Shown one piece after another: positions 2,138 to 24,990 of a DNA stretch of 32,000 nt. Position 1 is the first letter of the stretch, and each line of letters opens with the position of its first letter. Origin of the DNA: Chlamydiota bacterium. Its GTDB lineage: Bacteria > Auribacterota > JACPWU01. Made by a program: the position numbers and the translations under genes. Under the pieces are notes generated by a model. The model had not been told where the DNA came from and made no database searches. It saw nothing but the letters and a program-made list of their open reading frames with translations. Location: positions 1 through 32,000 of the forward strand of contig JACPWU010000024.1 in the NCBI GenBank assembly GCA_016196885.1. The letters are read 5' to 3'.

Positions 2138-2159
2138 ATAAAAAGTTCAAAGGTTTGTT

Positions 2160-2981
2160 ATGGCACTGAAAACATATCGACCCATGACGCCGACAAGGCG
2201 TTTTACAACGGGATATACGTTTGAGGAAATCACGCGCGGCCGCCCTGAGAAAAGTCTCGTCGAGCGTATTTCCAGGAGCGGCGGACGCAATTTTCAGGGG
2301 CGTTTGACGATGCGCCATCGTGGGGGAGGGTACCGCAAGATTTATCGCATCATTGATTTTAAGCGAGAAAAGCTAGATATTCCGGCGCGTGTTGTTTCCA
2401 TTGAGTACGATCCGAACAGATCTTGCCGCATTGCCCTTTTGCAGTATCGGGATGGAGAGAAGAGATATATTTTGGCGCCTTTGGGGCTTCAGGTGAATGA
2501 TGAACTTGTGAATTCTGACACAGCTGAACCCAAGGTTGGAAATTCCATGAAATTAAGTCAGATTCCCCTCGGCACCTTTGTTCACAACATTGAGCTTGTG
2601 CCAGGCAAGGGCGGTCAAATGGTTCGCAGCGCGGGGACTGCGGCTCAATTGATGGCCAAAGAAGGGGCGTTTGCTCATTTGAGATTGCCGTCGAAAGAGA
2701 TTCGCTTGGTTCGTGCAGAATGTCGCGCAACGATCGGTCAGTTGGGTAATACAGATCACATGAACGTTTCCATTGGAAAGGCGGGGCGTGTGCGCTGGAA
2801 GGGCCGTCGTCCCATTGTGAGAGGTGTGGCGATGAATCCAGTGGATCATCCCCTGGGAGGTGGAGAAGGGAAGGCCAATGGAGGCCGTCAGCATTGTTCT
2901 CCAACGGGCTTGATTGACGGGACAAAGACGAGAAATAAACGAAAAGCTTCCAATAAATATATTCTTCAAAGGCGGAAGTAA
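2160..2981 (+). CDS. rplB: 50S ribosomal protein L2
   Basis: 273 aa, [14 protein letters not shown]...GGGEGK...; unmistakable L2. Confidence 0.97.
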
Positions 2982-2992
2982 TTTTAAAAAAA

Positions 2993-3026
2993 GTTCAAAA
3001 GTTCAAAAGTTTTAAAGGTTCAAAAG
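2993..3026 (+). repeat. Octamer array GTTCAAAA-GTTCAAAA-GTTTTAAAG-GTTCAAAAG abutting the rpsS ATG
   Basis: Read directly. The array ends at 3026 and the ATG is at 3027. Confidence 0.85.
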
Positions 3027-3311
3027 ATGCCAAGATCATTAAAAAAAGGTCCTTTTGTGGATGTGAAGTTGATGGAGCGCATCGAGCGGATGAATCGCTC
3101 AGGGGAAAGGCGTCCTGTCAAGACATGGTCTCGAAGGTCCATGATTGTTCCCGATTTTGTGGGGCATAGTTTTTCTGTTTACAATGGTCGGAAATTTATC
3201 ACGGTGTTTGTTTCTGAAAACATGGTGGGTCATCGTTTGGGAGAATTTTCTCCGACCCGAACGTTCAAGGCCCATGGAGCGCATACCGAGAAGGCATCGG
3301 CGAAAAAGTAG
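3027..3311 (+). CDS. rpsS: 30S ribosomal protein S19
   Basis: 94 aa, [12 protein letters not shown]...FSVYNGRKF...[13 protein letters not shown]. Confidence 0.97.
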
Positions 3312-3456: not shown

Positions 3457-3813
3457 ATGGAAGCAAAAGCTTTTACAAGATTTGTCAGAATATCTCCTGT
3501 GAAGGGGCGTTTGATTGCAGATCAGATTCGAGGAAAAAATATTGCCGAAGCCTTGAATGTGGTGAATTTTTGTGCTCGAAAAGGCGGTGCCGTGGTCGGA
3601 AAAACTTTAAAATCTGCCCTTGCCAATGCCCGCGCCAAAGAAGGCATGGATTTAGATGCCTTAAAGGTGAGCAAAATTTGGATTGATGGAGGACCTTTTT
3701 GGAAAAGATTTATGCCCAGGGCGATGGGCCGCGCCACCAAGATTCGAAAGCGCATGAGTCATATTAATATTGTTTTGTCGGATGGAAAGACGGCTGCAAA
3801 GGCACAATCGTAG
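3457..3813 (+). CDS. rplV: 50S ribosomal protein L22
   Basis: 118 aa, MEAKAFTRFVRISPVKGRLIADQIRGK...; its TAG stop (3811-3813) lies inside the first arm of a palindromic repeat. Confidence 0.95.
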   Translation: MEAKAFTRFVRISPVKGRLIADQIRGKNIAEALNVVNFCARKGGAVVGKTLKSALANARAKEGMDLDALKVSKIWIDGGPFWKRFMPRAMGRATKIRKRMSHINIVLSDGKTAAKAQS

Positions 3814-3872
3814 TCGCCCGATTTATCGGGCAAACCCATGCAAGAAGATTGCCCCATGAATGGGGCGACTAC
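3810..3872. repeat. Palindromic double-hairpin element, copy 1 (63 bp)
   Basis: GTAGTCGCCCGATTTATCGGGC-aaacccatgcaagaagatt-GCCCCATGAATGGGGCGACTAC. The outer arms are GTAGTCGCCC/GGGCGACTAC and the inner hairpins are GCCCGAT..ATCGGGC and GCCCCAT..ATGGGGC. Confidence 0.9.
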
Positions 3873-3883
3873 AAAAGGAATTT

Positions 3884-5573: not shown

Positions 5574-5942
5574 ATGATTCAGCTCAGAACAAGATTAGAA
5601 ATTGCAGATAACTCGGGTGGCAGGAAAGCCGCTTGTATCAAGGTGCTTGGAGGAACTGCTCGTCGCTATGCTTCTCTCGGAGATGTGGTTGTGGCTTCCA
5701 TTAAGGAGGCGATTCCAGAGGGCATGGTCAAAAAGGGGGAAGTGGTGAAGGGCGTGGTGGTGAGAACCAAGAAGTCTGTGCGCCGCTTGGACGGGTCTTA
5801 CATCCGATTTGACTCTAATGCGATTGTCTTGATTGACAATCAGATGAATCCAAGGGGAACGCGTATTTTTGGACCTATTGCTCGAGAATTGCGCGACAAA
5901 AATTTTATGAAAATTATTTCTTTGGCGCCGGAAGTGCTTTAA
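5574..5942 (+). CDS. rplN: 50S ribosomal protein L14
   Basis: [27 protein letters not shown]... from ATG 5574. The track ORF from 5514 overlaps rpsQ and is an extension. Confidence 0.96.
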
Positions 5943-5946
5943 CGAG

Positions 5947-5970
5947 GTTCAAAAGTTCAAAGGTTCATTC
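5947..5970 (+). repeat. Octamer array GTTCAAAA-GTTCAAAG-GTTCATTC abutting the rplX ATG
   Basis: Read directly. The array ends at 5970 and the ATG is at 5971. Confidence 0.85.
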
Positions 5971-6306
5971 ATGAAGACAGAAACCGTTAGATACAAAACA
6001 TATTTAAAGAAAAATGATGTGGTCTTTGCCTTGGCGGGTCGCGAAAAAGGTAAGAAGGGTAAAATCCTTCAAGTGCTTCCAGAAAAGAATCGGGCCATCG
6101 TAGAGGGCTTGAATTTTTTGAAAAGGCATGCGAGACCTACGCAGAATAATCCTCAAGGAGGGGTGATTCAAAAAGAGGCTTCGATTCATTTGTCTAATTT
6201 GGCGCTCTTTTGCGCGAATTGCGATCGGCCAGTGCGAGTGGGCGTTAAGATTTTAGAAGAAGGGGCCAAAGAGCGTGTTTGTCGCAAATGTGGGGAAGAG
6301 GTTTAA
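5971..6306 (+). CDS. rplX: 50S ribosomal protein L24 (carries a C-terminal CxxC...CxxC motif)
   Basis: 111 aa with a KOW-like LKKNDVVFALAGREKGKKGKIL, plus synteny between rplN and rplE. Confidence 0.93.
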   Translation: MKTETVRYKTYLKKNDVVFALAGREKGKKGKILQVLPEKNRAIVEGLNFLKRHARPTQNNPQGGVIQKEASIHLSNLALFCANCDRPVRVGVKILEEGAKERVCRKCGEEV

Positions 6307-6390: not shown

Positions 6391-6945
6391 ATGGAAAATA
6401 GAGTTTTAAAATTTTATCGAGAAAAGGTCGTTCCGGACCTGGCGAAGCGGTTGAATTTTAAGAATGCGCTCCGTGTTCCGCGCTTGGTTAAAATTGTTTT
6501 GAACATGGGTGTTCAGGAGGCGATCAAGGATTTCGCCCTTTTGGAATCTCACGCTCAGGAATTAGGTTTGATCACGGGCCAGAAGGCGGTGATCACACGG
6601 GCGAAGAAAAGCATCGCTGGATTTAAATTGAGGGAGGGAGATCCGATTGGATGCAAGGTGACGCTTCGAGGCTCAAAGATGTACGAATTCATGGATCGTT
6701 TTGTGAGTGTGGTGCTTCCCCGTATCCGTGATTTTAAGGGGCTTTCACCCAAGTCTTTTGACGGCCGTGGCAATTATAATCTGGGTCTTCAGGAGCAAGT
6801 GGTTTTTCCGGAGATCGAGTTGGATAAAATTAAGCAGATTCAAGGCATGGATGTCACCTTTGTCACTTCTGCAAAGACGAATGAAGAGGCGAAGGAATTG
6901 TTAACGGCCTTGGGAATGCCGTTTAAAATAAGTTCAAAGGTTTAA
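6391..6945 (+). CDS. rplE: 50S ribosomal protein L5
   Basis: 184 aa, ...VPRLVKIVLNMGV...AGFKLREGDPIGCKVTLRG... Confidence 0.96.
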   Translation: MENRVLKFYREKVVPDLAKRLNFKNALRVPRLVKIVLNMGVQEAIKDFALLESHAQELGLITGQKAVITRAKKSIAGFKLREGDPIGCKVTLRGSKMYEFMDRFVSVVLPRIRDFKGLSPKSFDGRGNYNLGLQEQVVFPEIELDKIKQIQGMDVTFVTSAKTNEEAKELLTALGMPFKISSKV

Positions 6946-7006
6946 AAGTTCAAAAGTTTAATCCCTACAGGGACTATAAAATCTGAAGTTCAAAGGTTCA
7001 AAAGTT
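6932..7006 (+). repeat. Two GTTYAAAR octamer arrays (6932-6963 and 6988-7006) flanking a short TCCCTacAGGGA palindrome
   Basis: The first array starts inside the last codons of rplE (KISSKV). The second ends at the rpsN ATG 7007. Confidence 0.85.
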
Positions 7007-7192
7007 ATGGCGAAAACATGTTTGATGGTAAAGCAGCGGCTGACTCCGAAGTTTAAAGTGCGCTATTACAACCGTTGCAAGCATTGCGGTAGGAGAAGGG
7101 CCTATTTGAGAAAGTTTGGGATTTGCCGTGTGTGTTTTCGCAAATACGCCTCTACGGGATTGATCCCGGGAGTCTTAAAGGCAAGTTGGTAA
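7007..7192 (+). CDS. rpsN: 30S ribosomal protein S14, short zinc-binding (type Z) form
   Basis: 61 aa with [10 protein letters not shown]...CRVCFR (CxxC-x12-CxxC), in the spc operon position. Confidence 0.93.
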
Positions 7193-7292: not shown

Positions 7293-7691
7293 ATGAGTAT
7301 GTCTGATCCGATTTCAGATTTATTGACGCGCATTCGCAATGCGAGTTCGGCAAAAAAAGAATATGCCGATGTTCCTGCTTCTTCTTTGAAGGAGGAGGTT
7401 TTAAAGGTTTTGAAGAAGGAGGGATTTATTCAGGATTTCAAAAAGGCCGAAGAAGCGGCTCATCCTTGGCTGCGGGTTTATTTAAAATTTACCCCTTCAG
7501 GCATGAGTGTGATTCAGGGGATTCAAAGATCCAGCACGCCGGGGCGGCGTTTTTATGTGAGTGTAGATGAGATTCCCCGAGTCAAGGGAGGTTTGGGGGT
7601 TGCGATTCTCTCGACTTCGAAAGGAGTTCTTGCCGATCGTAAGGCAAAGTCTCTCCATGTTGGCGGAGAAGTTCTTTGTAAAGTTTGGTGA
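7293..7691 (+). CDS. rpsH: 30S ribosomal protein S8
   Basis: 132 aa, MSMSDPISDLLTRIRNA..., with AGGAG 8 nt upstream. Confidence 0.95.
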   Translation: MSMSDPISDLLTRIRNASSAKKEYADVPASSLKEEVLKVLKKEGFIQDFKKAEEAAHPWLRVYLKFTPSGMSVIQGIQRSSTPGRRFYVSVDEIPRVKGGLGVAILSTSKGVLADRKAKSLHVGGEVLCKVW

Positions 7692-7704: not shown

Positions 7705-7755
7705 GTTTTATGTTTTAAGTTTAAAAGCTTCCCTTTGTAACGTAAAACATGAAAC
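7705..7755 (+). repeat. Imperfect 13-bp inverted repeat GTTTTATGTTTTA ... TAAAACATGAAAC in the rpsH-rplF spacer
   Basis: 12 of 13 positions are complementary, with a 25-nt loop. Uses the CATGAAAC word family. Confidence 0.7.
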
Positions 7756-7773
7756 TAAAATCGGAGTTTTAAA

Positions 7774-8713: not shown

Positions 8714-8731
8714 AATGTTCAAAATTCAAAT

Positions 8732-8788
8732 GTAGTCGCCCCGTTTATGGGGCAATGCAATAGATTGCCCGATAAATCGGGCGACTAC
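8732..8788. repeat. Palindromic double-hairpin element, copy 2 (57 bp, inner hairpins in the opposite order)
   Basis: GTAGTCGCCCCGTTTATGGGGC-aatgcaatagatt-GCCCGATAAATCGGGCGACTAC, between rplR and rpsE. Confidence 0.9.
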
Positions 8789-8839
8789 GAGATCATTTGA
8801 GATTTGGAATTTCCGGTTTATCCGGGTGAGGGGAGTTTT

Positions 8840-9937: not shown

Positions 9938-11287
9938 ATGCTGTCTGCCTTTGTTAACATTTTTAAAGTTCCCGATCTTAAAAAGAAGCTCCTTTTGACC
10001 TTGGGGCTTGTGGCGGTGTACCGCGTGGGTACTTATATTCCAACGCCGGGGGTGGATGGGTATGCACTGAGTCAGGCTCTTCAGGACATGGCTAGGACGC
10101 AAGGGGGCGCTGGCACCATTTTTGGCATTATGGATATGTTCAGCGGTGGGGCGATGAACAAGTGCACCATTTTTGCGCTGGGCATCATGCCCTATATCAG
10201 TGCTTCTATTATTCTGCAGCTTTTGACGACGGTGGTTCCTCAATTGGAACGCATGGCCAAAGAAGGGGAAATGGGCCGCCGTAAATTGACCCAATACACC
10301 CGCTATGGCACTGTGGTCTTAAGCATCATTCAATCCTTTTTCATCGCTCTTTGGCTGGAGCGTACAGCCCTTTTCAATCGTGTGATTGTTCCAACTCCAG
10401 GCTGGGGTTTTCGTTTGCTGTGCGCTTTGACTTTGACTTCAGGAACAGCGTTTATCATGTGGTTGGGAGAGCAGATCACGGAGCGAGGAATTGGGAATGG
10501 GATGAGCTTGATCATTGCGGGCGGAATTGTTTCGCGTATTCCGACGGCTGTTCATCAGATGTTTATTCTTCTGAAGCCTTCGAATGCGGAGGCAGTGAGC
10601 CTGGGACCGCTTCAGGCCATTTTTATGTTGGCCGTGCTGATTGCTGTGATCGCTTGTGTCATCATAGTCACGCAGGGCCAGCGTAAGATTCCAGTGCAAT
10701 ATGCCAAGCGTGTTGTGGGTCGGCGTGTTTTCTCGGGCCAGTCTACTTATATTCCTTTAAGGGTGAATCAGGCGGGTGTGATCCCCATTATTTTTGCAGT
10801 TTCCATCTTGATGTTCCCGCGCACCATGGCGGCCTTGATTCAGAATGGGGCTATGCAAAAGTTCGCGAATGGTTTGGTGGAGGGGCGTCTTCTTTACAAT
10901 TTGATTTATGCCTTGTTGATTATTTTCTTCACTTATTTTTATACGGCGATCACGTTTAATCCCTTGGATATTTCTGAGAATATGAAAAAGAGTGGTGCCT
11001 TTGTCCCTGGCATCCGGCCGGGACAGGCGACGACGGATTTTTTAGAGCATGTGATGAGCCGAATCACTTTTTCAGGGGCCGTATTTTTAGCAGCCATTGC
11101 GATTATGCCTGATTTTATTTACCGTATGATGAATGTTCCTTATTTGGTCGCGAGTTTCTTCGGAGGAACCGCTCTTTTGATTGTGGTGGGTGTGATGCTG
11201 GATTCCATGCGACAGCTCGAATCCCAGCTTCTCATGAGGCACTACGATGGCTTTATGAAGAAGGGGAGACTGAAGGGAAGGTATTAG
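9938..11287 (+). CDS. secY: Preprotein translocase subunit SecY
   Basis: 449-aa polytopic membrane protein, ...GIMPYISASIILQLL...WLGEQITERGIGNGMSLII... Confidence 0.96.
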   Translation: MLSAFVNIFKVPDLKKKLLLTLGLVAVYRVGTYIPTPGVDGYALSQALQDMARTQGGAGTIFGIMDMFSGGAMNKCTIFALGIMPYISASIILQLLTTVVPQLERMAKEGEMGRRKLTQYTRYGTVVLSIIQSFFIALWLERTALFNRVIVPTPGWGFRLLCALTLTSGTAFIMWLGEQITERGIGNGMSLIIAGGIVSRIPTAVHQMFILLKPSNAEAVSLGPLQAIFMLAVLIAVIACVIIVTQGQRKIPVQYAKRVVGRRVFSGQSTYIPLRVNQAGVIPIIFAVSILMFPRTMAALIQNGAMQKFANGLVEGRLLYNLIYALLIIFFTYFYTAITFNPLDISENMKKSGAFVPGIRPGQATTDFLEHVMSRITFSGAVFLAAIAIMPDFIYRMMNVPYLVASFFGGTALLIVVGVMLDSMRQLESQLLMRHYDGFMKKGRLKGRY

Positions 11288-11377
11288 AAATTCAAAATCC
11301 AAAAATAAAAATTAAGGAGGTTATTTATTCAATTCTTCCTAAATTTTGATTTCTGCTATGAAAGTGAAGCTCATTCT

Positions 11378-11422
11378 GTAGTCGCCCCATTTATGGGGCT
11401 GCCCGATGAATCGGGCGACTAC
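11378..11422. repeat. Palindromic double-hairpin element, copy 3 (45 bp, minimal form)
   Basis: GTAGTCGCCCCATTTATGGGGC-t-GCCCGATGAATCGGGCGACTAC, between secY and adk. Confidence 0.9.
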
Positions 11423-11521
11423 AAAAAAAGCATGATGGGGAGAACTTTCATCGCACACGATGATCTCGAAAGATCATTGAAATTGATATTTGATTTTTGA
11501 ATTTCTTTAAGAGGGATTTTT

Positions 11522-14133: not shown

Positions 14134-14186
14134 ATGTTTCAAGTTTTATGTCTCATGTTTCAAGTTAAAAACATCAAACATGAAAC
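14134..14186 (+). repeat. Direct 12-nt repeat ATGTTTCAAGTT (14134-14145, 14155-14166), followed by an inverted-type CAAACATGAAAC
   Basis: Read directly. Same GTTTCATG/CATGAAAC word family as 7705-7755 and 23245-23296. Upstream of rpsD. Confidence 0.75.
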
Positions 14187-14208
14187 AATAGTTCAAAGGA
14201 TTAATGCT

Positions 14209-17535: not shown

Positions 17536-19125
17536 ATGAGTGAAAAATTATCCATGGCCCGCTCCATGTCTCGCGTGGGCTTTTGGACTTTTACGAGCCG
17601 TTTGTTGGGTTTGGTGAGAGACAGCATGGTGGCTCGCCTCTTTGGGGTCGGGTTTGCGACGGATGCCTTCATGGTAGCCTTTACCATTCCCAACTTGCTC
17701 CGGCGCTTGTTGGCCGAGGGCGCTTTGTCCATTGCCTTCGTCCCCATTTTTACAGACTCTTTGACCCGTCAACGAAAGGAAGATTCTCAAGACACCTTTC
17801 AGGCCATTTTTACGATCTTTTCCGCTTTGTTAATTCTCATCAGTATTTTGGGAGTTTTTTTTTCCCCATTTCTTGTTAAGGTTTTCGCGCCCGGCTTTGA
17901 AATTGAAAAATTTCATTTGACCGTTCTCTTGAATCGCTTGATGTTCCCCTTTATTTTTCTGATGGGATCTTCTTCGGTGGCGATGGGCCTTTTGAATGCC
18001 TTGAATTCCTTTTCTGTCCCTGCGGCTGCTCCCATTTTACTCAATGTCTGCATGATTTTGAGTTCTTTTCTTTTTTACCGCTTTTTGAATCCTCCCATTC
18101 TGGCTTTGGGCTGGGGGGTTCTCGCAGGGGGGGTGACACAATGGCTGCTTCAAGTTTGGAAGGTAGGACAATTCGGTTTTAAAGTTCGCTTCTCTTGGGA
18201 TTGGAAACATCCCGGTTTACAACGCGTCTTTCGTTTGATGGCCCCAACGGTTTTTGGGGTGGCCGTTTATCATTTGAATATTTTGGTCTCGCGGGCCTTG
18301 GCCTCTCTTCTTCCTCAGGGAAGTGTGACCTACCTTTATTATTCGGATCGGTTTTTGGAATTTCCCTTGGGAATTTTTGCCTTTTCGATTGCAACGGTGG
18401 CGCTTCCTCAATTGTCTCGGGAAGCGGCAAGTGGAAATGATGATCGTTTGAAGGAGACGCTCTTTTTTGCTTTAAGATTGGCCTCGTTTATTTGTATTCC
18501 TGCCATGTTTGGGCTCATGATGCTTCGCCTTCCCATTCTCTCGCTTGTTTTTCAATATGGGAAGTTTTCTCTTCAAAATACTTTAGAATTGGCACAAGTT
18601 TTTGGGATGGCCTCACTGGGATTGATCGCGGTGGCGGGACTCAGAATTGTGGTTCAGGCCTTTTATTCGATGGGAGATGTGAAGACCCCTGTCAAGGCGG
18701 CTTGTGCAAGTTTCCTTGTGAATGCAAGCCTCGGCTTTGTTTTAATGAGATGGCTTGGCCCTTCAGGACTGACTCTCTCCAGTTCCATTGCGGCCTGGGT
18801 ACAATGGCTCATGCTATTTTGGTTTTTGGGGCGCCGCGTGGGGAAAATTTCTTTCGGGATTTTTTTTCGTGAGATTTGGCCTATTCTCCTTGCTTCTTTG
18901 GTGATGGCCCTCGTGATTTGGCCCTTGGGGGGAAGCGATCTTCGTTTCTTTCCAAAGACCGTTGTATTAAAATTGGCCTATGTTTTAGGGGCAGTGGCGG
19001 TGGGAGCGGGGATTTACATGGGACTTGTCTATCTTTTCGGATTTAAGGAGTTGAGGGGATTGATAAAGAAGTTGAGGGCAAGGGAGGAGAGGTTGCCTGT
19101 GGCAGGGCCTGACATTTCTGATTAA
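17536..19125 (+). CDS. murJ: Lipid II flippase MurJ (MviN)
   Basis: 529-aa polytopic protein, ...SRLLGLVRDSMVARLFGVGFATDAFMVAFTIPNLLRRLLAEGALSIAFVPIF..., a hallmark MurJ N-terminus. Confidence 0.9.
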   Translation: MSEKLSMARSMSRVGFWTFTSRLLGLVRDSMVARLFGVGFATDAFMVAFTIPNLLRRLLAEGALSIAFVPIFTDSLTRQRKEDSQDTFQAIFTIFSALLILISILGVFFSPFLVKVFAPGFEIEKFHLTVLLNRLMFPFIFLMGSSSVAMGLLNALNSFSVPAAAPILLNVCMILSSFLFYRFLNPPILALGWGVLAGGVTQWLLQVWKVGQFGFKVRFSWDWKHPGLQRVFRLMAPTVFGVAVYHLNILVSRALASLLPQGSVTYLYYSDRFLEFPLGIFAFSIATVALPQLSREAASGNDDRLKETLFFALRLASFICIPAMFGLMMLRLPILSLVFQYGKFSLQNTLELAQVFGMASLGLIAVAGLRIVVQAFYSMGDVKTPVKAACASFLVNASLGFVLMRWLGPSGLTLSSSIAAWVQWLMLFWFLGRRVGKISFGIFFREIWPILLASLVMALVIWPLGGSDLRFFPKTVVLKLAYVLGAVAVGAGIYMGLVYLFGFKELRGLIKKLRAREERLPVAGPDISD

Positions 19126-19137
19126 AGGAGGTTTCTC

Positions 19138-20916
19138 ATGAAAAGAGTTTTTTTAATTAGGCATATGCACTTGATTCCCCTTTGTAGTCGCCCGATTCAT
19201 CGGGCAAACCCATGCAAGGGGCACAGCCCCATGAATGGGGCGACTACAACTTCTTGCCATGGCGCTTGCTATCTAAGGGGAATCAAGTGCATATGCCAAG
19301 AAAATGTGTCTTTGGAGGTGGACTCTCAGGTTAAATCCGTGGTGGTGTATCCGGATCGCGTACTGGTAAAGAGAATGGCTTCTTTGGATTTGAAGGAAGG
19401 ATCTTTTCAAGCTGTTTTTAAGGATTTGCCGGATCTTCTGGAGGAAGATTCTTTAAAGGCGCTCGGAAGGGGAGAAGCCCGTGTGAAAATTTTGGGTCTT
19501 GAAACGAAGCGTGTTTATCTGGAAAAGCCTTATGAAGGGGAGATTCGCAAGTTGAAAGAGGCAGTCACACAAACCGAGGATGAAATTTCTGTTTTGGACG
19601 ATCAGGAGGCTGTGCTCGACAAAGAAAAAAGTTTGGTCGAGGGGATTCGCGTTTATTCTGGCGAACAATTTTCAAAAGAATTTATCACGCGATCTCCCAG
19701 TCCAGACGATTGGGAAAAGATGGTTCAATTTATGACAGGACATCTTTCAAAAATCAATGAAGAGAAAATGTCTTTGACTCAAAAGAAAAGAGAATGGACG
19801 GAGAGTTTGGACGTGATGAAGCGCAAGTTGTCCGAACTTTCTTCAGGCACTCGTTCCAAGCGCCATGTGACCGTTCAGTTGGAAGCCCTTTCAGCGGGTC
19901 ATTTTGAATTGGAGGTTTCTTATGTGCTTCCAGGGGCGAGCTGGTATCCCGGTTATGAGGCGAGAGCCTCTCTCAAAGAAGGAAAAGTTGAATTCTCTTC
20001 TGTAGGCAATGTCAAGCAGATCACCGGTGAGGATTGGAAGGGTGTGGAGCTTTCTCTTTCAACGGCTCGGCCTGCGGTAGGAGCCCAGATGCCTAAAATA
20101 GAGGCTTGGGAGTTGAACCCTTATCAGCCTCCTCTTCTTTACCAGAGTCAGGCAGCTCCTGAAAAGATGGAGAGATTGGGAAAGGGGAGAGTGATGTACG
20201 GTCTGACCGATGATTATTCTCCGGAGCCGCAAAGGGCTTCGAAGGAAGAAGCGCTTGTGGAGGCAGAAGTGGCCATGAGTGAAACCATTCGCAAAGGAAC
20301 AGCTGTAGAGTTTAAAATCCCTGGCTTTGTGGATATCCCCAGCGATCAAAACATGCACAAGGTCTGGATTTCTGCTCTCGATCTAGCCGGAAAATTTCAT
20401 TATTTGGCCACGCCCAAATTAAGTCCTTACGCCTATTTGGTAGCCGATGTGAAAAATGAATCAGATATTCAATTTCTAGAAGGGGATGTGCGTGTATTCC
20501 TCGAGGGAGATTTCGTCGGCACTTCTCACATTGAGCCTGTAGCGCCGGGAGAAGAGGTCAGTCTCCATCTGGGAATTGATGAAGGATTAGAAATCAAACG
20601 AGAGGGGGTGGAGGATAAACAAGACGAAACTTCTTTTTTTTCCAAGAAAAAAGAGTGGGTCCGTTCTTACAAAATCAAAATCAAGAATTTTAAGGACAAG
20701 GATGTCGAATTGACTCTCTGGGATCAAATTCCCGTTTCCAATCATGAGGACATTGTCGTGGATGAAGTTCAATGGAGTGAGAAACCGGTCGAACAAACCG
20801 GGCGTGGTCTTGTGAAATGGGTTTTGAATATTCCAGCCAAACAGGAAAAAGAAGTCACGATTCATTTTAGAATTACTTATCCAACTCAGATGCAAGTGGA
20901 GGGGTTGGAGGGGTGA
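19138..20916 (+). CDS. DUF4140/DUF4139 protein (MuiA-like, TIGR02231-type by recollection), with a 46-codon repeat-derived insertion after codon 7
   Basis: AAGGAGG lies 7 nt upstream of ATG 19138. The family-like N-terminus VKSVVVYPDRVLVKR...FKDLPDLLEEDSLKA begins after the insertion. An alternative start is GTG 19306, which has no obvious SD. Confidence 0.72.
   Translation: MKRVFLIRHMHLIPLCSRPIHRANPCKGHSPMNGATTTSCHGACYLRGIKCICQENVSLEVDSQVKSVVVYPDRVLVKRMASLDLKEGSFQAVFKDLPDLLEEDSLKALGRGEARVKILGLETKRVYLEKPYEGEIRKLKEAVTQTEDEISVLDDQEAVLDKEKSLVEGIRVYSGEQFSKEFITRSPSPDDWEKMVQFMTGHLSKINEEKMSLTQKKREWTESLDVMKRKLSELSSGTRSKRHVTVQLEALSAGHFELEVSYVLPGASWYPGYEARASLKEGKVEFSSVGNVKQITGEDWKGVELSLSTARPAVGAQMPKIEAWELNPYQPPLLYQSQAAPEKMERLGKGRVMYGLTDDYSPEPQRASKEEALVEAEVAMSETIRKGTAVEFKIPGFVDIPSDQNMHKVWISALDLAGKFHYLATPKLSPYAYLVADVKNESDIQFLEGDVRVFLEGDFVGTSHIEPVAPGEEVSLHLGIDEGLEIKREGVEDKQDETSFFSKKKEWVRSYKIKIKNFKDKDVELTLWDQIPVSNHEDIVVDEVQWSEKPVEQTGRGLVKWVLNIPAKQEKEVTIHFRITYPTQMQVEGLEG
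19160..19297. mobile_element. 138-bp composite MITE-like insertion with perfect 21-bp terminal inverted repeats
   Basis: GGCATATGCACTTGATTCCCC (19160-19180) is the exact reverse complement of GGGGAATCAAGTGCATATGCC (19277-19297). The segment encloses repeat copy 4 and a GCCATGGC palindrome. 138 bp is 46 codons, in frame and stop-free within the 19138 ORF. Confidence 0.55.
19184..19247. repeat. Palindromic double-hairpin element, copy 4 (64 bp), nested inside the 19160-19297 composite
   Basis: GTAGTCGCCCGATTCATCGGGC-aaacccatgcaaggggcaca-GCCCCATGAATGGGGCGACTAC. It shares the linker AAACCCATGCAAG with copy 1. Confidence 0.9.
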
Positions 20917-20979
20917 AGGAGCCATTTTTCACCTGAAAATAGTCTTTAGTCATTCTTATACAATGACTCATGATAGCTT

Positions 20980-21051
20980 GTAGTCGCCCGATTTATCGGG
21001 CAATGCCCAATACCCCAATGTCATAGACCGCCCCATAAATGGGGCGACTAC
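20980..21051. repeat. Palindromic double-hairpin element, copy 5 (72 bp)
   Basis: GTAGTCGCCCGATTTATCGGGC-aatgcccaataccccaatgtcatagacc-GCCCCATAAATGGGGCGACTAC. Overlaps the 3' end of the pabC-like ORF. Confidence 0.9.
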
Positions 21052-21850
21052 AAGGGTGATTTTCATCCCCCTTTGTGCCGACCCAGGGGACGATGCCCAT
21101 GAGGCTGTTCGTGAGAAAGGCTTCGTCTGCGGTTAGAATTTCTTCAGAGTTCAAGGCTGTCAATTTTACTTCTAAACCAAAGGTGCGGACCTTTTCCAGA
21201 ATGATTTTTCGAGTGACACCCGGGAGAATTCCATCTTCGACTCTGGGAGTTAAAAGGAGATTCCCTTTGATTAAAAAAAGATTGCTCGCCGTTCCTTCCG
21301 TGAGAAAGCCTTGCGTATTGAGAAAAATCCCTTCGTCATATCCCTTCTCTAATGCAGTCATTCGGCCCAAAATATTGTCCAAGTAATTTAGGGATTTGAT
21401 TTGTGAAAGGGGAGAAGTCTCATTTCTTCGGGTGGAAAGGGTCAGGGTCTGGTAACCTTTTTCATAAAGTTCTTCTCGAAAGGGAAGAAAACGTCGGCAG
21501 GTCAGAATGAACTGTGGGGGAGTAGGTACCATGGGAGGAATAGATCCCATCCATTTGCCGCGTGTGATGGTGAGTCGCAGATAGCAATCCTCAAGACCAC
21601 TTTTTTCAATGATTTGATTGATCCATTTTTCAATTTCTTCAGGGGTCCAAGAAGGTTGGATTTGAAGAACTTTCATTCCTTCAAAGAGGCGATGGATGTG
21701 GTCCATTCTACCTAAAATTTTTCCCTGGCAGGCTCTCATGCTTTCAAAAACGCCGTCTCCGAAATACAGACCCCGGTCCAGCATCAAAGGATGAGCCTCA
21801 TTCTCCTTAAAAAAAGAACCATTAAAACAAATAAGATTCTCATTCTTCAT
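20993..21850 (-). CDS. pabC: Class IV (fold type IV) PLP enzyme, probably aminodeoxychorismate lyase
   Basis: 285 aa, ...RGLYFGDGVFESMRA...IKSLNYLDNILG...TEGTASNLFLIKG...PGVTRK... Overlaps the pabB 3' end by 11 nt. The last ~19 codons and the stop lie in a palindromic repeat. Confidence 0.72.
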   Translation of the reverse strand: MKNENLICFNGSFFKENEAHPLMLDRGLYFGDGVFESMRACQGKILGRMDHIHRLFEGMKVLQIQPSWTPEEIEKWINQIIEKSGLEDCYLRLTITRGKWMGSIPPMVPTPPQFILTCRRFLPFREELYEKGYQTLTLSTRRNETSPLSQIKSLNYLDNILGRMTALEKGYDEGIFLNTQGFLTEGTASNLFLIKGNLLLTPRVEDGILPGVTRKIILEKVRTFGLEVKLTALNSEEILTADEAFLTNSLMGIVPWVGTKGDENHPCSRPIYGAVYDIGVLGIAR

Positions 21851-23258
21851 TGGGAATCCATTTTTTGGAATCAGTTTTTTGAGCTTTTATGCGTGTTGGG
21901 ATTTCAAAAAATGCTTTTCCCTTCACCAGGGTTTCTTCGTACTCTGCTTCTGGATCTGAATCTGCCACGATCCCGCCTCCCACTTGAAAGGATAACTCTT
22001 TTTCTTGATGAATCAAAGTTCGAATGAGAATGGAAAGATCGCTGACTTGATTAAATCCGATGTATCCAAAAACACCCGTGTAAAGATTTCTCCGTGTAGG
22101 TTCCAGTTCTTCAATGATTTCCATGGCCCGAATTTTCGGAGTTCCTGTGATAGAGCCTCCGGGGAAGGAGGCTTCGAGAACATCAAAAACATTGAGCCCT
22201 GGCTTTAAATCTCCTTCAATGGTCCCCACGAGATGAAAAACCGTGGGATGCCTTTCAAGGTGTTTAAGCGAAGGGACATGGATAGAACCATATTCACAGA
22301 CTTTCCCCAAATCATTTCTTTCTAAATCGATAATCATCAAAAGCTCCGCTGCATCCTTGGGACTCTTTAAAAGTTCCTCTTGAAGGATCTTATCTTCAAT
22401 AAGAGATTTCCCGCGCGGACGTGTTCCTTTGATCGGGCATGTTTGGATGTGGCGGTTCTCAATTTTAAGAAAACGTTCGGGAGAGAGGCTCATCAATGTA
22501 AGAGAGGGCGTCTTAAAGTAGGAGGCATAGGGGGCAGGATAATCGAGGGCGAGTTCTTGAAAGAGGGGGTAGGGGTTTCCCGAAAATTTTGTTTTGAAAC
22601 GTTGAGAGAAATTAACCTGGTAAATATCTCCCTGGGCAATGTAGTCTTTTGCTTTTCGAATAGCACAGAGATAGTCCTCTTTTTTGAAATTTGAAATGAA
22701 GGGAGCCATATTCTTAAAATCTAATGGAGATTTAGGCGCTTTTTTATTGAACCTTTTTCTGAAAGATTCAATTTTGGAAAAGACCTCTTTGTCATTTTCT
22801 TTAGGAAGTTTTTTTGCGATGAGCCAACCTTGGCTTTGGAGGCGGTCGTAGAGATAGAACTTGTCATAGAAAGCTACTTCGATATCTGGGGCGGGCGAGA
22901 TGGCTAAAGCACGTGAAGGAAGACTTTCCAGGGTCATCCCCAAGTCATAGCTGAAATAGCCAACGGCCCCCCCTTGGAAAAAAGGGTTGTGAGAATAATC
23001 CTGAGCGTAGCTGGAAAATAGTTTTTTCAATTCCAAAAGAGGCCGCTCTGAATTTTTTTCTTCTAGGGTTGTTCGGGTCTTGATTTCAACATGACGACCC
23101 TTGCTTTTGAAAATAAGAAAGGGGTCATGGCCCAAGATGCAGTGATGTTCATGGTAAAGAAGGAAGGCGTAGGGGTCTTCGCTCAAGGGAGAAAAACAGT
23201 CAAGCAGATTTCCCGAATGTGTCCAGGACTTAAGGTCAATTAAAGTTTCATGTTTCAT
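21840..23258 (-). CDS. pabB: Aminodeoxychorismate synthase component I
   Basis: 472-aa chorismate-binding enzyme, SPERFLKI...CPIKGTRPRG...LERNDLGKVC...SFPGGSITGTPKIRAMEIIEELE. The PIKGT lysine is typical of PabB; TrpE has PIAGT. Confidence 0.85.
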   Translation of the reverse strand: MKHETLIDLKSWTHSGNLLDCFSPLSEDPYAFLLYHEHHCILGHDPFLIFKSKGRHVEIKTRTTLEEKNSERPLLELKKLFSSYAQDYSHNPFFQGGAVGYFSYDLGMTLESLPSRALAISPAPDIEVAFYDKFYLYDRLQSQGWLIAKKLPKENDKEVFSKIESFRKRFNKKAPKSPLDFKNMAPFISNFKKEDYLCAIRKAKDYIAQGDIYQVNFSQRFKTKFSGNPYPLFQELALDYPAPYASYFKTPSLTLMSLSPERFLKIENRHIQTCPIKGTRPRGKSLIEDKILQEELLKSPKDAAELLMIIDLERNDLGKVCEYGSIHVPSLKHLERHPTVFHLVGTIEGDLKPGLNVFDVLEASFPGGSITGTPKIRAMEIIEELEPTRRNLYTGVFGYIGFNQVSDLSILIRTLIHQEKELSFQVGGGIVADSDPEAEYEETLVKGKAFFEIPTRIKAQKTDSKKWIPNEE

Positions 23259-23296
23259 GTTTCATGTTTCATGTTTTTTAACTTGAAACATGAAAC
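23245..23296. repeat. (GTTTCAT)x4 tandem heptamer array (23245-23272) with an inverted partner TTGAAACATGAAAC (23283-23296)
   Basis: Read directly. On the - strand the array reads (ATGAAAC)n and contains the pabB start codon (23258-23256). Confidence 0.85.
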
Positions 23297-23310
23297 TTGG
23301 AACCTGAGAC

Positions 23311-24990
23311 TTAAATCTCTCCCCCCACAGGCCTTGCCCCCTTCTGTTGAAGCAGGTCCAAAATTTCTTTCCGCTTGATTTTGAGCGTGGTGGTTTTGGG
23401 CAGTTCCTCCCAGATTTCAAAGCCTCGGATTCTCTTATAGTCAGCCAGGCGCAGGTTCACATGTTTAATTTCGTTTAAAATTTGTGCCTCGACTTTAGGA
23501 TTGTTTTTGAGTTCTTCAGGGTTCTCAACCTTTGGAACAATCAGGGCGTAAACTTGTTCGTCCCCTTTGAAACCCCTTGAATCCTTCTTGAGCCCTATCA
23601 CACAGGCCTCTCGAATCCAGGTGCTTCTCAAAAGTTCCTCTTCTAATTCCTCGGGGTAAACATTTTTTCCACCCCGTGTGACAATCACATTTTTAAGCCG
23701 TCCTGAAATATGAAGGTGTCCCTTGCGGTCGAAAAAGCCCAAGTCTCCCGTGTGAAGCCAGCCGTCTTTTAAAATTTCAGCCGTAGCCTCAGGATTCTTG
23801 TAGTAACCTTTCATGATGTTGGGTCCACGGGCTAGAATTTCTCCATCTTTCAATTTGATTTGAACCCCGGGGATGGGCTTGCCGACAGAACCCATCACCT
23901 GGTGAGTAGGGGTGTTGACATTGAGAATCGGGCTTGTCTCTGTGAGCCCGTAACCTTGATAAATGGGGATTCCTAAGAGGAAAAATTCCTGAATGATTTT
24001 GGGATCAATCGGGGCTCCTCCCGATATCATGAAACGCAGGCGGGGGCTCAAGTGATTTCGGACGGATTTAAAGAGAATCGTCCCTAAAGGAATGTGAAAA
24101 GCCATTCCTAGTTTTGAAAGGGCGCGAAGTATTTTGAAAACGAGGCGTTTCATTTTGGGAAGCGCTTCAATTTTTGAAAAAATTTGATGGTACATCAGTT
24201 GAATCAAAGCCGGGACCGCAATCAAAACGCTGCCCTGATTTTCCTGCATGCGCTCGACCAGGACAGGGCCTTTGAGATTTTCAACATAGGTGATGGTGCC
24301 TCCGGAATAAATCGGAATAAGAAAATCGGCCGTGATGGCATAGGTGTGGCAAAGGGGCAGCACCGAGATGAAATGGTCATTGAATGAAAAAGGGAAGACA
24401 GACGAAACAGATTCCACGTTAGAGGCCAGGTTCCCGTGTGTGAGCATCACTCCCTTGGGAGACCCCGTGGTTCCTGAGGTGTAAAGAATGATCGCCAAGT
24501 CTTCTGCCTTGGGCTTTTCAAGGAGGACGCCCGAATTTTCTTTGATCTGGAGGATTTTCTGAAGAGAGTTTTCCGATGCATTTGTATCGTCTAAGACGAT
24601 GATGTGAGGTTGAACCTTTGCATTTTTCGCCACGGACACAATCGTTTCCTTGAATTTGAGAGAAGTGAAAATCACTGTGCATTCGGCATGATCGAGAATA
24701 TTGAGTATTGAATGTTCTTTGAGCTTGTTATCGAGGGGAACCACCACGCCCCCGGCCCAGAGGGCGCCGAAAAAGACCATGCCCCAATAAGGAGAATTTT
24801 CGGTGATGAGACCGATCCTTTGAGAAGGTTTGAGGCCTTGGGCCTTGAGGGCGAGTGCGATTTTTTGGGCCCATTCATAGAGTTCTTGGTAAGTCACCCG
24901 AAAATAGTTTTCGCCCTCTTTGATTTGTAAAGCGATTCTTGATGCGAAACTCCCATGGGCTCTTTCGAGAATATTAATGAGGGTGTTCAT
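23311..24990 (-). CDS. AMP-dependent acyl-CoA synthetase (long-chain fatty acid-CoA ligase-like)
   Basis: ILYTSGTTGSPKGVMLTHGNL, GYGLTETSP and TGDLGFFDRKGHLHISGRLKNVIV motifs. The likely start is ATG 24990 (MNTLINILERA); the track ORF extends to 25086. Confidence 0.85.
   Translation of the reverse strand: MNTLINILERAHGSFASRIALQIKEGENYFRVTYQELYEWAQKIALALKAQGLKPSQRIGLITENSPYWGMVFFGALWAGGVVVPLDNKLKEHSILNILDHAECTVIFTSLKFKETIVSVAKNAKVQPHIIVLDDTNASENSLQKILQIKENSGVLLEKPKAEDLAIILYTSGTTGSPKGVMLTHGNLASNVESVSSVFPFSFNDHFISVLPLCHTYAITADFLIPIYSGGTITYVENLKGPVLVERMQENQGSVLIAVPALIQLMYHQIFSKIEALPKMKRLVFKILRALSKLGMAFHIPLGTILFKSVRNHLSPRLRFMISGGAPIDPKIIQEFFLLGIPIYQGYGLTETSPILNVNTPTHQVMGSVGKPIPGVQIKLKDGEILARGPNIMKGYYKNPEATAEILKDGWLHTGDLGFFDRKGHLHISGRLKNVIVTRGGKNVYPEELEEELLRSTWIREACVIGLKKDSRGFKGDEQVYALIVPKVENPEELKNNPKVEAQILNEIKHVNLRLADYKRIRGFEIWEELPKTTTLKIKRKEILDLLQQKGARPVGGEI

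What the first reader, a model, noticed from the sequence alone, without database searches (positions are those of the whole stretch)
19160..19297. A 138-bp nested palindromic insertion lies in frame and stop-free inside the 5' end of the DUF4139 gene
A perfect 21-bp inverted repeat (19160-19180 and 19277-19297) brackets repeat copy 4. The bracketed segment is exactly 138 bp, or 46 codons, and contains no stop in the reading frame.

That frame starts at ATG 19138, which has a strong AAGGAGG 7 nt upstream. Conceptual removal of the segment gives MKRVFLIKENVSLEVDSQVKSVVVYPDR..., a plausible native N-terminus for this family.

This resembles Rickettsia palindromic elements, which insert in frame into protein genes. 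Alternatively, translation may now start at GTG 19306, in which case the element sits in the leader.
Basis: partly seen in the sequence, partly recalled or inferred. Interest (0 to 1): 0.66.

Follow-up and report, generated by a model that had tools for sequence, protein, structure and literature searches.

The report
REP-doublet palindrome disrupting a signal peptide
A common bacterial hairpin repeat (a GTAG-type REP doublet, or REPIN), wrapped in a one-off perfect 23-bp inverted repeat, sits right after codon 7 of a muiA-family gene where the export signal should be; it is a known kind of event and probably damages the gene rather than being a tolerated in-frame insert.

Summary
The perfect inverted repeat is 23 bp, not 21 (19160-19182 / 19275-19297). 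The bracketed 138 bp is stop-free in the frame of ATG 19138.

The core (19184-19247) is a GTAG-headed REP doublet (REPIN). The window holds five copies, and the same 22-nt REP occurs in about a dozen phyla. The outer arms and a 25-nt spacer are unique to this copy.

The reading as a clean, RPE-like insertion is only partly supported.
- All 119 orthologues carry a 20-27 aa signal peptide at this position.
- Excision leaves MKRVFLI|KENV…, with no hydrophobic core. About 12-15 residues are missing.
- Only one of the element's three frames is open, so an in-frame, open result has a chance of about 0.1.
- AlphaFold gives residues 8-53 pLDDT below 50.

The right junction (19297|19298) is not reproducible. 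A 100%-identical sister record lacks the next 106 bp. The window itself lacks 94 bp at a second REPIN-adjacent junction (21079|21080) compared with a raw-read contig.

The most likely picture is a REPIN-bearing palindrome that destroyed the export signal. The arms' origin is unresolved, and the junctions are either deletions or scaffolding gaps. This is a new member of a known kind, of modest interest.

The parts
19125..19140 (+). Shine-Dalgarno AAGGAGG (19125-19131), a 6-nt spacer and ATG 19138. This is the probable native start of the muiA-family gene.
   Evidence: Sequence read. MKR followed by hydrophobic residues matches the orthologue starts MKRVLPVLVLL and MKRIIFLVGLL.
19138..19159 (+). 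Codons 1-7 (MKRVFLI): the n-region and first residues of a signal peptide, cut off by the element.
   Evidence: The junction 19159|19160 is confirmed by an independent raw-read contig, L056.
19160..19182 (+). Left arm of the perfect 23-nt inverted repeat, GGCATATGCACTTGATTCCCCTT. It abuts the REP doublet.
   Evidence: It is absent from the other four doublets.
19184..19205 (+). REP-L: a GTAG head (19184-19187) plus the hairpin GCCCGA-TTCA-TCGGGC ('G-type').
   Evidence: The same 22-mer occurs in more than 51 loci from about a dozen phyla.
19206..19225 (+). Linker between the two REPs, AAACCCATGCAAGGGGCACA. Its first 13 nt are shared with copy 1.
   Evidence: (family D4).
19226..19247 (-). REP-R: an inverted 'C-type' REP, GTAGTCGCCCCATTCATGGGGC on the minus strand.
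19250..19274 (+). A 25-nt unpaired spacer, CTTCTTGCCATGGCGCTTGCTATCT, that makes the palindrome asymmetric. Its first 13 nt resemble the reverse complement of copy 1's linker (12 of 13 with one gap).
   Evidence: It is unique in the window and in L057. The similarity was found by eye.
19275..19297 (+). Right arm of the perfect 23-nt inverted repeat.
   Evidence: It is present in the window and in the sister record, but joined to different right flanks.
19297..19298 (.). A junction that differs between assemblies. It lies flush with the outer end of the right arm and is also a k=21 de Bruijn branch point.
19298..19403 (+). 106 bp encoding KENVSLEVDSQVKSVVVYPDRVLVKRMASLDLKEGS, the start of the DUF4140 domain. 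It is absent from the otherwise identical record JACOUD010000058.1.
   Evidence: It is homologous to orthologue N-termini.
19138..20916 (+). The 592-aa ORF (DUF4140 + DUF4139, MuiA family). Its body is intact but no signal peptide is recognisable.
3808..3874 (+). REP doublet copy 1, between rplV and rpsC.
8731..8790 (-). REP doublet copy 2, upstream of rpsE.
11377..11424 (-). REP doublet copy 3, between secY and adk.
20978..21053 (+). REP doublet copy 5, between the convergent muiA-like and pabC-like genes.
21079..21080 (.). Second discordant junction, 26 nt from copy 5. The window lacks 94 bp that a raw-read contig (L053) has. The sister record lacks those 94 bp plus window 21080-21123.

Best explanation
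What it is. The core is a REPIN: two inverted GTAG-headed REP hairpins. This is a non-autonomous element of the kind mobilised in trans, as single-stranded DNA, by a RAYT (Y1/HUH) transposase. Here the REPIN lies inside a larger, apparently single-copy palindrome with 23-bp perfect arms and a 25-nt bulge. The whole 138 bp sits directly after codon 7 of a MuiA-family (DUF4140/DUF4139) gene, inside the stretch that should encode its signal peptide.

What it does to the gene. It is not a clean insertion. The hydrophobic core and cleavage region of the signal peptide, about 12-15 codons, are absent. In this assembly the gene therefore encodes, at best, a protein with a 46-residue disordered N-terminal tail and no export signal. 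The open frame is most likely incidental.

Effect on the mRNA (inferred). A very stable hairpin starts 22 nt after the start codon. Its 23-bp perfect duplex has the length of an RNase III substrate. It would further depress or uncouple expression, so the gene is probably disabled or decaying.

The right edge. The right end of the palindrome coincides with a junction that differs between assemblies of the same population. This is either a palindrome-adjacent deletion hot spot or a scaffolding gap.

Shown:
- the anatomy of the element;
- membership of a REP-doublet repeat family;
- absence of the signal peptide;
- the discordant junctions;
- the predicted disorder of the tail.

Inferred:
- mobilisation by a RAYT;
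- loss of function;
- RNase III sensitivity;
- the origin of the arms.
For: Repeat family:
- There are five doublets in the window with identical REP hairpins and unrelated flanks.
- They have a GTAG head and compensatory stem changes: G-type versus C-type here, and GTCTGA/TCAGAC, GTCCAA/TTGGAC and others elsewhere.
- The same REP is found in more than 51 loci.
- A Y1_Tnp ORF lies 1.7 kb from one such REP.
- Intragenic GTAG-REP dimers encoding 20-30 aa, and REP clusters encoding 43-82 aa, are documented, with N-terminal cases common (PMC3733652).

Disruption of the gene:
- All 119 orthologues carry an N-terminal hydrophobic signal. No candidate N-terminus in the window does: KD at most 1.46, against an orthologue median of 2.98 and minimum of 1.76.
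- MKRVFLI matches orthologue signal-peptide starts.
- The left junction is confirmed by raw-read contig L056.
- AF2 gives pLDDT below 50 for residues 8-53, and the fold begins at residue 57.
- Only one of three frames through the element is open.
- The hairpin energies are -99 kcal/mol as RNA and -49 kcal/mol as DNA.
- There is no Shine-Dalgarno sequence before GTG 19306.

Junction instability:
- The sister record lacks 19298-19403, flush with the arm.
- At 21079|21080 the three assemblies form a nested series of 0, 94 and 138 bp missing.
Against: - The body of the gene is fully intact: both Pfam domains are matched end to end, with 45% identity to orthologues. Any inactivation is therefore recent, or the protein is still in use.
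- An open, in-frame read-through has a chance of only about 0.1, which gives mild support to selection for translation.
- No closer relative than 46% identity exists in the databases searched, so the true empty site is unknown.
- If the right junction is a scaffolding gap, the missing signal-peptide codons may exist in the real genome. The insertion could then be clean.
Confidence: 0.55

Rival explanations
1. This is a precise, RPE-like in-frame insertion of a palindromic element into a protein gene. It is translated from ATG 19138 and tolerated as an extra N-terminal segment.
For: - The segment is 138 bp (46 codons) and stop-free in frame, and ATG 19138 has a strong Shine-Dalgarno sequence.
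- The rest of the gene is intact.
- Intragenic REP and RPE insertions encoding 20-80 aa are documented.
- The residues are predicted to be disordered, as expected for a tolerated appendage.
- If 19297|19298 is a scaffolding gap, the missing signal-peptide codons might be present in the real genome.
Against: - Excision does not restore the family's signal peptide.
- The insert lies inside the export signal, not in a surface loop, so it would abolish targeting even if translated.
- The chance of an open frame is about 0.1.
- The sister record is frameshifted at the same junction.
- The core is GTAG-tagged, not of the RPE type.
Confidence: 0.15
2. The element lies in the 5' leader. Translation starts downstream of it, at GTG 19306 or at one of the starts chosen by the annotation pipelines: ATG 19231 inside the REPIN in this assembly, or ATG 19293 inside the right arm in the sister record.
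For: - NCBI gene calls start inside the element: P0121, 561 aa, from ATG 19231, and P0001, 505 aa, from ATG 19293.
- Di Nocera et al. note that many N-terminal 'intragenic' REPs are really extragenic.
Against: - There is no Shine-Dalgarno sequence before GTG 19306.
- The internal ATGs are buried in the hairpin stem.
- Every downstream start gives a protein without the family's signal peptide.
- The AAGGAGG-ATG-MKRVFLI arrangement 12 nt after murJ looks like the genuine start.
Confidence: 0.1
3. On the origin of the outer arms: they are a recent local inverted duplication. Template switching or fold-back synthesis at the REPIN hairpin copied 23 nt of one flank onto the other side, with loss of native sequence. 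On this view they are not the terminal repeats of a mobile element. The main alternative is a composite multi-copy element or a pre-existing 71-bp hairpin into whose loop the REPIN inserted.
For: - The arms are 23/23 identical, whereas the REP arms always carry two mismatches.
- The arm is unique in about 40 kb of this genome. Exact-match scans of GTDB representative genomes, JGI metagenomes and IMG/VR found none; the scans of the first two also failed to return the window's own locus, so those collections do not appear to hold this genome.
- Among 43-48 doublets surveyed, no other has a comparable private flank repeat.
- The left arm continues the REP stem without a gap.
- Native sequence is missing next to the element.
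Against: - A 25-nt bulge separates the REPIN from the right arm, which simple hairpin extension does not predict.
- No microhomology is visible at the presumed switch points.
- Composite multi-copy units carrying this REP within outer inverted repeats do exist in Stahlbacteria.
- The rest of this genome could not be searched for more copies.
Confidence: 0.35
4. The in-frame continuity, and the apparent loss of signal-peptide codons, are products of assembly. The MAG was built from MEGAHIT contigs joined by the IDBA-UD scaffolder. Short pieces under 200 bp next to REPIN or palindrome branch points were dropped, and the flanks were butted together.
For: - The window lacks 94 bp of genuine pabC coding sequence that a raw-read contig contains, with 100% identity on both sides.
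- The sister record lacks 106 and 44 bp more.
- Every missing piece is under 200 bp, and none shows more than 1-2 nt of microhomology at its ends.
- The 23-nt arms create a k=21 branch exactly at 19297|19298.
- The probable source study used MEGAHIT followed by IDBA-UD scaffolding, with each filter assembled separately. The link between this MAG and that study is my inference from accession ranges. The 200-bp figure is my recollection of MEGAHIT's default minimum contig length; it was not checked with the tools here.
Against: - No repeated k-mer (k of 17 or more) lies at 21079|21080 within the window.
- No Ns mark the joins.
- Real palindrome-adjacent deletions would look the same.
- The left junction and left arm are independently confirmed, so the interruption of the gene after codon 7 is real in any case.
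Confidence: 0.4

Closest known systems
REPINs / GTAG-tagged REP dimers (Bertels & Rainey 2011, PMC3116915; Di Nocera et al. 2013, PMC3733652)
   Same: - There are two inverted REPs, each a GTAG head plus a 6-bp-stem hairpin, separated by a short linker.
- They are dispersed in several copies, mostly between genes or at gene ends.
- The stems show compensatory changes.
- Intragenic and N-terminal cases encoding tens of residues are already described.
   Different: - This copy is wrapped in a private, perfect 23-bp inverted repeat with a 25-nt bulge.
- It sits inside a signal-peptide-coding region from which native codons are missing.
- No RAYT could be located for this genome.
- The REP sequence is shared across about a dozen phyla. 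REPIN-RAYT systems are described as mostly vertically inherited (RAREFAN abstract).
Rickettsia palindromic elements (RPE)
   Same: It is a palindromic repeat of about 100-150 bp lying in frame and stop-free inside a protein-coding gene, and the added residues are unrelated to the host protein.
   Different: - It belongs to a different sequence family. The core is GTAG-tagged, whereas Di Nocera et al. describe the short Rickettsia conorii elements RPE-4 and RPE-6 as CGTC-tagged.
- The host is not Rickettsia.
- The host protein is not left intact on both sides, because the signal peptide is lost.
- The outer arms have no further copies.
MITEs, and composite REP-plus-stem-loop terminal repeats (the Pseudomonas 'bizarre structures' of Di Nocera et al.; Stahlbacteria composite units seen here)
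   Same: It is a short element (138 bp) with perfect terminal inverted repeats and no coding capacity of its own. REPs joined to unrelated stem-loops, and multi-copy composite units, do exist.
   Different: There is no target-site duplication, and no second copy was found anywhere that could be searched.
Templated mutation at quasipalindromes and palindrome-stimulated deletion (classical E. coli work; cited from my own knowledge and not checked in the library)
   Same: There is a perfect inverted copy of flanking DNA next to an imperfect hairpin, and the deletion endpoints lie flush with the base of the palindrome.
   Different: The 25-nt bulge and the lack of microhomology do not fit the simple models. 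The deletions may be assembly gaps.

Membership tests
REPIN (REP doublet) | Two REP sequences in inverted orientation, separated by a short spacer and able to form a hairpin. | tested here: met
   REP-L is at 19184-19205 and REP-R at 19226-19247, with a 20-nt linker. All five copies have the same layout.
REPIN (REP doublet) | Each REP is a conserved GTAG tetranucleotide at the foot of a short palindromic hairpin. | tested here: met
   The REPs fit GTAGTCGCCC[GC]ATT[TC]AT[CG]GGGC. Stem changes are compensatory within the window and across phyla.
REPIN (REP doublet) | Many dispersed copies in the genome, predominantly extragenic. | tested here: inconclusive
   Five copies lie in the first 21 kb and none in the next 18.6 kb of the sister contig. 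Four of the five are intergenic or at gene ends.
REPIN (REP doublet) | A cognate RAYT (Y1/IS200-like transposase) gene in the same genome, typically flanked by REPs. | not testable with these tools
   None was found in about 40 kb (motif scan; Pfam lists). One Y1_Tnp ORF (E = 4.8e-10) lies 1.7 kb from this REP in a Stahlbacteria locus. The rest of this genome could not be fetched.
Rickettsia palindromic element (RPE) | Member of one of the Rickettsia RPE sequence families. Di Nocera et al. describe the short elements RPE-4 and RPE-6 as CGTC-tagged. | tested here: not met
   The core is GTAG-tagged, and NCBI labels the organism 'Chlamydiae bacterium'. No alignment to RPE sequences was run.
Rickettsia palindromic element (RPE) | In-frame, stop-free insertion that leaves the host protein sequence intact on both sides. 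| tested here: not met
   The segment is in frame and stop-free, but excision leaves no signal peptide and an N-terminus about 12-15 residues short.
MITE | Terminal inverted repeats. | tested here: met
   The arms are 23/23 complementary.
MITE | Target-site duplication flanking the element. | tested here: not met
   The flanks are …TTAATTA| and |AAGAAAA…, with no direct repeat of 2 nt or more. The right flank may be incomplete.
MITE | Multiple copies in the genome. | tested here: inconclusive
   No other copy was found in the window, in L057, or in exact-match scans of GTDB representatives, JGI metagenomes and IMG/VR. The first two scans did not return the window's own locus either, and most of this genome was not searchable.
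MuiA / DUF4140-DUF4139 family (host gene) | DUF4140 and DUF4139 domains. | tested here: met
   Pfam E-values are 3.9e-17 and 1e-55, both matched end to end. There are 492 homologues.
MuiA / DUF4140-DUF4139 family (host gene) | N-terminal signal peptide, present in all 119 orthologues examined. | tested here: not met
   The highest 10-residue KD value is at most 1.46 for every candidate start, against an orthologue minimum of 1.76 and median of 2.98. See also the alignment.

The most novel reading that the evidence does not exclude
The discordant junctions are real biology. Under this reading, REPIN-bearing hairpins in a natural groundwater population act as fixed anchors for one-sided, nested deletions.
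- At pabC the series is 0, 94 and 138 bp.
- At muiA it is an unknown amount in the window and that amount plus 106 bp in the sister record.
- Both anchors follow T[AG]TGCC.

This would point to hairpin-directed cleavage by a RAYT-like HUH nuclease or by SbcCD, eroding neighbouring genes. It would be REPIN-driven gene decay caught as co-existing haplotypes.

A second, separate possibility concerns the REP itself. Its near-identity across about a dozen phyla could mark a horizontally spreading REPIN-RAYT system. That would run against the prevailing view that these systems are vertically inherited.
Probability: 0.2. Interest if true: 0.65.

Novelty: new member of a known kind. Interest (0 to 1): 0.32.

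Why it matters
Taken alone, this is one more case of a REP or REPIN landing in the 5' end of a gene, with the twist of a private outer palindrome. It matters in three practical ways.

1. Annotation. Both public gene calls start inside the element, and the true N-terminus, an export signal, is gone. The gene should not be annotated as an intact MuiA-like exported protein.

2. Assembly quality. Two 100%-identical MAG contigs and a raw-read contig differ only by indels under 200 bp next to REPINs. Frames and 'fusions' read across such sites in MAGs cannot be trusted without read support.

3. Possible biology. If the indels are real, they would show REPIN hairpins acting as deletion hot spots in a wild population. 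The cross-phylum identity of this REP is also worth a dedicated look.

Tried and rejected
Searches for an empty or complete site:
- The closest homologue outside the window's own population is 46% identical.
- A 160-aa N-terminal query returned nothing usable. The index gave 44 candidates and none scored.
- A 300-aa query found only the sister record's cluster.
- A degenerate codon pattern for VSLEVDSQVKSVVVYPDR in JGI metagenomes gave no hits.
- Guessed cut gene products starting at 19246 and 19249 are not on record. The window's own 561-aa call is not retrievable.

Searches for more copies of the arm:
- There were no hits in GTDB representative genomes, JGI metagenomes or IMG/VR.
- A blastn of the 161-bp region against plasmids found nothing.
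- The window's genome seems not to be in, or to be masked from, genome contigs.

Other negative results:
- Rfam, at gathering thresholds, found nothing in the window.
- The promoter and terminator scan of 18900-19500 found nothing.
- A literature string search for GTAGTCGCCC returned only unrelated primer sequences.

Ideas considered and dropped:
- That the spacer is a relic of the native hydrophobic core. It reads LLAMALAI in frame +1. But the run continues into REP-encoded residues (MGRLQLL…), it requires removing 91 nt rather than 90, and it yields a TAA at the junction.
- That flank palindromes are a general property of REPINs. Copy 3's 12-nt flank repeat has p = 0.07. The few significant cases elsewhere are neighbouring REPs or composite units.
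- That Logan contig ends mark REPIN boundaries. Other Logan contig ends fall at featureless positions, so no inference was drawn.
- That the outer repeat is an assembler fold-back artefact. The palindrome centre is asymmetric, and the left flank and arm are confirmed by an independent k=31 assembly.

Technical failures: three script calls and one paper search failed.
Full report
**1. The observation**

The sequence is as described, with one correction. The perfect inverted repeat is 23 nt, not 21 (19160-19182 and 19275-19297). It is unique in the window even with three mismatches allowed, and none of 100 shuffles produced a match.

The bracketed 138 bp is 46 codons. ORF 19138-20916 (592 aa) reads through it. 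AAGGAGG (19125-19131) lies 6 nt before ATG 19138, and murJ ends at 19125.

The element folds far better than shuffled sequence. As DNA it gives -49 kcal/mol, z = -10.7. As RNA in its context it gives -99 kcal/mol, z = -8.8.

**2. Anatomy**

From left to right the element consists of:
- the left arm (19160-19182);
- REP-L, GTAGTCGCCCGATTCATCGGGC (19184-19205);
- a 20-nt linker (19206-19225);
- REP-R, the inverted GTAGTCGCCCCATTCATGGGGC (19226-19247);
- a 25-nt unpaired spacer (19250-19274);
- the right arm (19275-19297).

The window holds five such REP doublets: 3808-3874, 8731-8790, 11377-11424, 19182-19249 and 20978-21053. Aligning them shows that similarity stops at the REP heads. The arms and the spacer belong to copy 4 only.

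Every doublet pairs a 'G-type' hairpin (GCCCGA…TCGGGC) with a 'C-type' hairpin (GCCCCA…TGGGGC). Each hairpin is self-complementary, but the doublet folded as one long stem always has G·G and C·C mismatches. The outer arms, by contrast, are perfect.

**3. What the core is**

A GTAG head at the foot of a short hairpin, inverted pairs and dispersed copies are the hallmarks of GTAG-tagged REPs, or REPINs (PMC3116915; PMC3733652).

The labels include Stahlbacteria, WOR-3, Zixibacteria, Poribacteria, Nitrospirae, Nitrospinota, Planctomycetota, Elusimicrobiota, Actinomycetota, Proteobacteria and a CPR Doudnabacteria MAG.

In those loci the partner REP has the same architecture but a different, compensated stem. 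One Stahlbacteria locus has a Y1_Tnp (IS200-like) ORF 1.7 kb from a REP.

No RAYT was seen in the roughly 40 kb of this genome that I could read. Rfam has no match.

**4. The host gene and the 'clean insertion' claim**

The ORF carries DUF4140 and DUF4139, both matched end to end. Its best homologues outside its own population are only 42-46% identical.

All 119 orthologues begin with a classical signal peptide, MK[KR] followed by a hydrophobic core and A-x-A. About 10 residues then precede the motif SV[VI]VYPDR.

The window's MKRVFLI matches the start of such a signal, but the hydrophobic core is absent. I measured the highest 10-residue Kyte-Doolittle (KD) hydropathy in the first 45 residues. 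It is 1.39-1.46 for the full ORF, for the excised version, and for the version lacking only the left arm plus REPIN. It is 1.02 from ATG 19231. The orthologue median is 2.98 and the minimum 1.76.

The excised protein also reaches the conserved motif about 12-15 residues early. Removing the 138 bp therefore does not recreate a native N-terminus.

AlphaFold2, run with a 36-sequence alignment, gives pLDDT below 50 for residues 1-6 and 8-53. The first strand is at residues 57-61. The element-encoded residues are thus a disordered tail in place of the export signal, not a loop in a fold.

Only one of the element's three forward frames is open. An open, in-frame outcome therefore has a probability of about 0.1 by chance.

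**5. The junctions are not reproducible**

The window appears to be the first 32 kb of a 77,993-bp NCBI contig.

A second NCBI record, JACOUD010000058.1 (77,719 bp, GCA_016178005.1, labelled 'Chlamydiae bacterium'), is 100% identical over the region compared. It differs only in lacking window 19298-19403 and 21080-21123.
- The first gap starts exactly at the outer end of the right arm. It removes the first 36 residues of the mature protein and shifts the frame.
- NCBI's gene call in that record starts at the ATG inside the right arm (P0001, MPFQAVF…). In the window's own contig it starts at ATG 19231 inside the REPIN (P0121).

A raw-read (Logan) contig from SRR12113387 (L053) shows that the window is itself short by 94 bp at 21079|21080. 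The missing piece encodes the genuine C-terminus of the class-IV aminotransferase (pabC-like) gene. As a result, the window's 285-aa ORF runs out of frame through REPIN copy 5.

The three assemblies therefore form a nested series of 0, 94 and 138 bp missing, sharing one breakpoint 26 nt from a REPIN.

Another Logan contig (L056) confirms murJ, the start codon, the left arm and the first bases of REP-L, and then ends. All Logan contigs are 100% identical to the window wherever they overlap. I could not obtain any independent sequence across 19185-19400.

**6. Real deletions or scaffolding gaps?**

The probable source study assembled each filter separately with MEGAHIT, joined contigs with the IDBA-UD scaffolder, and dereplicated MAGs only within sites (PMC7906910). 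The link between this MAG and that study is my inference.

Points favouring scaffolding gaps:
- Every missing piece is under 200 bp.
- None shows more than 1-2 nt of microhomology at its ends.
- The 23-nt arms create a k=21 branch exactly at 19159|19160 and 19297|19298.

Dropped short contigs would explain this pattern. The 200-bp figure is my recollection of MEGAHIT's default minimum contig length and was not checked with the tools here.

Against this, no repeated k-mer lies at 21079|21080. Palindrome-adjacent deletions would also look the same. I rate the two explanations about equal.

Either way, the interruption after codon 7 is real, but the frame continuity on the right is unverified.

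**7. Origin of the outer arms**

Among 43-48 REP doublets in the window and the fetched loci, the longest perfect flank repeat is this one, at 23 nt. The next, at 16 nt, belongs to a multi-copy composite unit in Stahlbacteria. The rest are 4-10 nt.

No other copy of the arm exists in about 40 kb of this genome. Exact-match scans of GTDB representatives, JGI metagenomes and IMG/VR also found none. The scans of the first two did not return the window's own locus either, so those collections do not appear to hold this genome. A blastn against plasmids found nothing.

Perfect identity and uniqueness favour a recent local inverted duplication at the REPIN hairpin. The 25-nt bulge, the absence of microhomology, and the existence of composite REP units elsewhere favour a different origin. 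That would be a composite element, or a REPIN inserted into the loop of a pre-existing 71-bp hairpin. This question is unresolved.

**8. Verdict**

The finding is a GTAG-REP doublet nested in a private palindrome that has replaced the core of a signal peptide. Intragenic and N-terminal REP dimers are already described.

This case adds the outer perfect repeat and the discordant junctions. It is a new member of a known kind, of modest interest. The main caveat is that the in-frame reading rests on a junction that only one assembly supports.

Noticed in passing
window 21079-21080 and ORF 20993-21850 (minus strand): The class-IV aminotransferase (pabC-like) gene is damaged in the window. A raw-read contig (L053, SRR12113387) has 94 extra bp here encoding the native C-terminus …VQSNNHRIGSGKPGSITKQIRCYYETFMPTEVGHKGG. 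Without them, the window's ORF runs out of frame through REPIN copy 5 (…GTKGDENHPCSRPIYGAVYDIGVLGIAR). The sister record lacks 138 bp at the same breakpoint.
   Followed up: yes
L002-L052; window REPs at 3810, 8767, 11401, 19184, 20980: The 22-nt REP GTAGTCGCCC[GC][AG]TT[TC]AT[CG]GGGC is found essentially unchanged in MAGs labelled as about a dozen phyla: Stahlbacteria, WOR-3, Zixibacteria, Poribacteria, Nitrospirae, Nitrospinota, Planctomycetota, Elusimicrobiota, Actinomycetota, Proteobacteria and CPR. REPIN-RAYT systems are described as mostly vertically inherited, so this breadth is unexpected.
   Followed up: partly
L004 7480-7720, L008, L035, L017, L045 (Stahlbacteria CSMAG_2146): In Stahlbacteria the same REP doublet sits inside a larger multi-copy unit. 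The shared flanks exceed 200 bp and include a 16-nt outer inverted repeat, CCTCTCCCTTTTTAAG. Composite repeats carrying this REP therefore exist.
   Followed up: partly
L036 about 5800-6000 (unclassified 'bacterium' MAG MFD12922): There is a head-to-tail array of at least five REPs with a constant 12-nt linker (GTAGTCGCCCAATTCATCGGGC AGGTTTCTCTCT …). This is a REP cluster rather than inverted doublets.
   Followed up: no
window 19231 and 19293; P0121, P0001: The public gene calls for this gene start at ATGs inside the repeat element. One is inside the REPIN in the window's own contig. The other is inside the right arm in the sister record.
   Followed up: yes
window 19297 and 21079: Both fixed breakpoints follow the same short motif: …GCATATGCC| and …CTTTGTGCC|, that is T[AG]TGCC. 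In the raw-read contig, the sequence across the pabC breakpoint, CCCCTTTGT-GCCCGAC…GTCGGC, also resembles the junction of the left arm and REP-L, CCCCTTTGTAGTCGCCCGA…TCGGGC. This could be coincidence or a degenerate REP.
   Followed up: no
window 11286-11506: REPIN copy 3, between secY and adk, lies roughly at the centre of weak outer inverted repeats. One is 12 nt at 92% (11354-11365 / 11444-11455). The other is 33 nt at 76% (11286-11318 / 11474-11506). The shuffle test gives p = 0.07, which is not significant.
   Followed up: yes
window 2136-2155, 2981-3036, 5938-5965, 6923-7014, 7398-7416: Short runs of an 8-nt-period motif (AAGTTCAA / AAGGTTCAAAAGTT) recur in several intergenic spacers of the ribosomal-protein gene cluster (families D1, D2, D5 and D6).
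   Followed up: no
window 23239-23316, with related 14136-14187 and 7734-7756: An imperfect palindrome built from GTTTCAT heptamer repeats lies in the divergent spacer between pabB and the AMP-binding gene. Related copies lie at about 14150 and about 7740 (I3, I5 and D9). One Logan contig ends at its centre.
   Followed up: no
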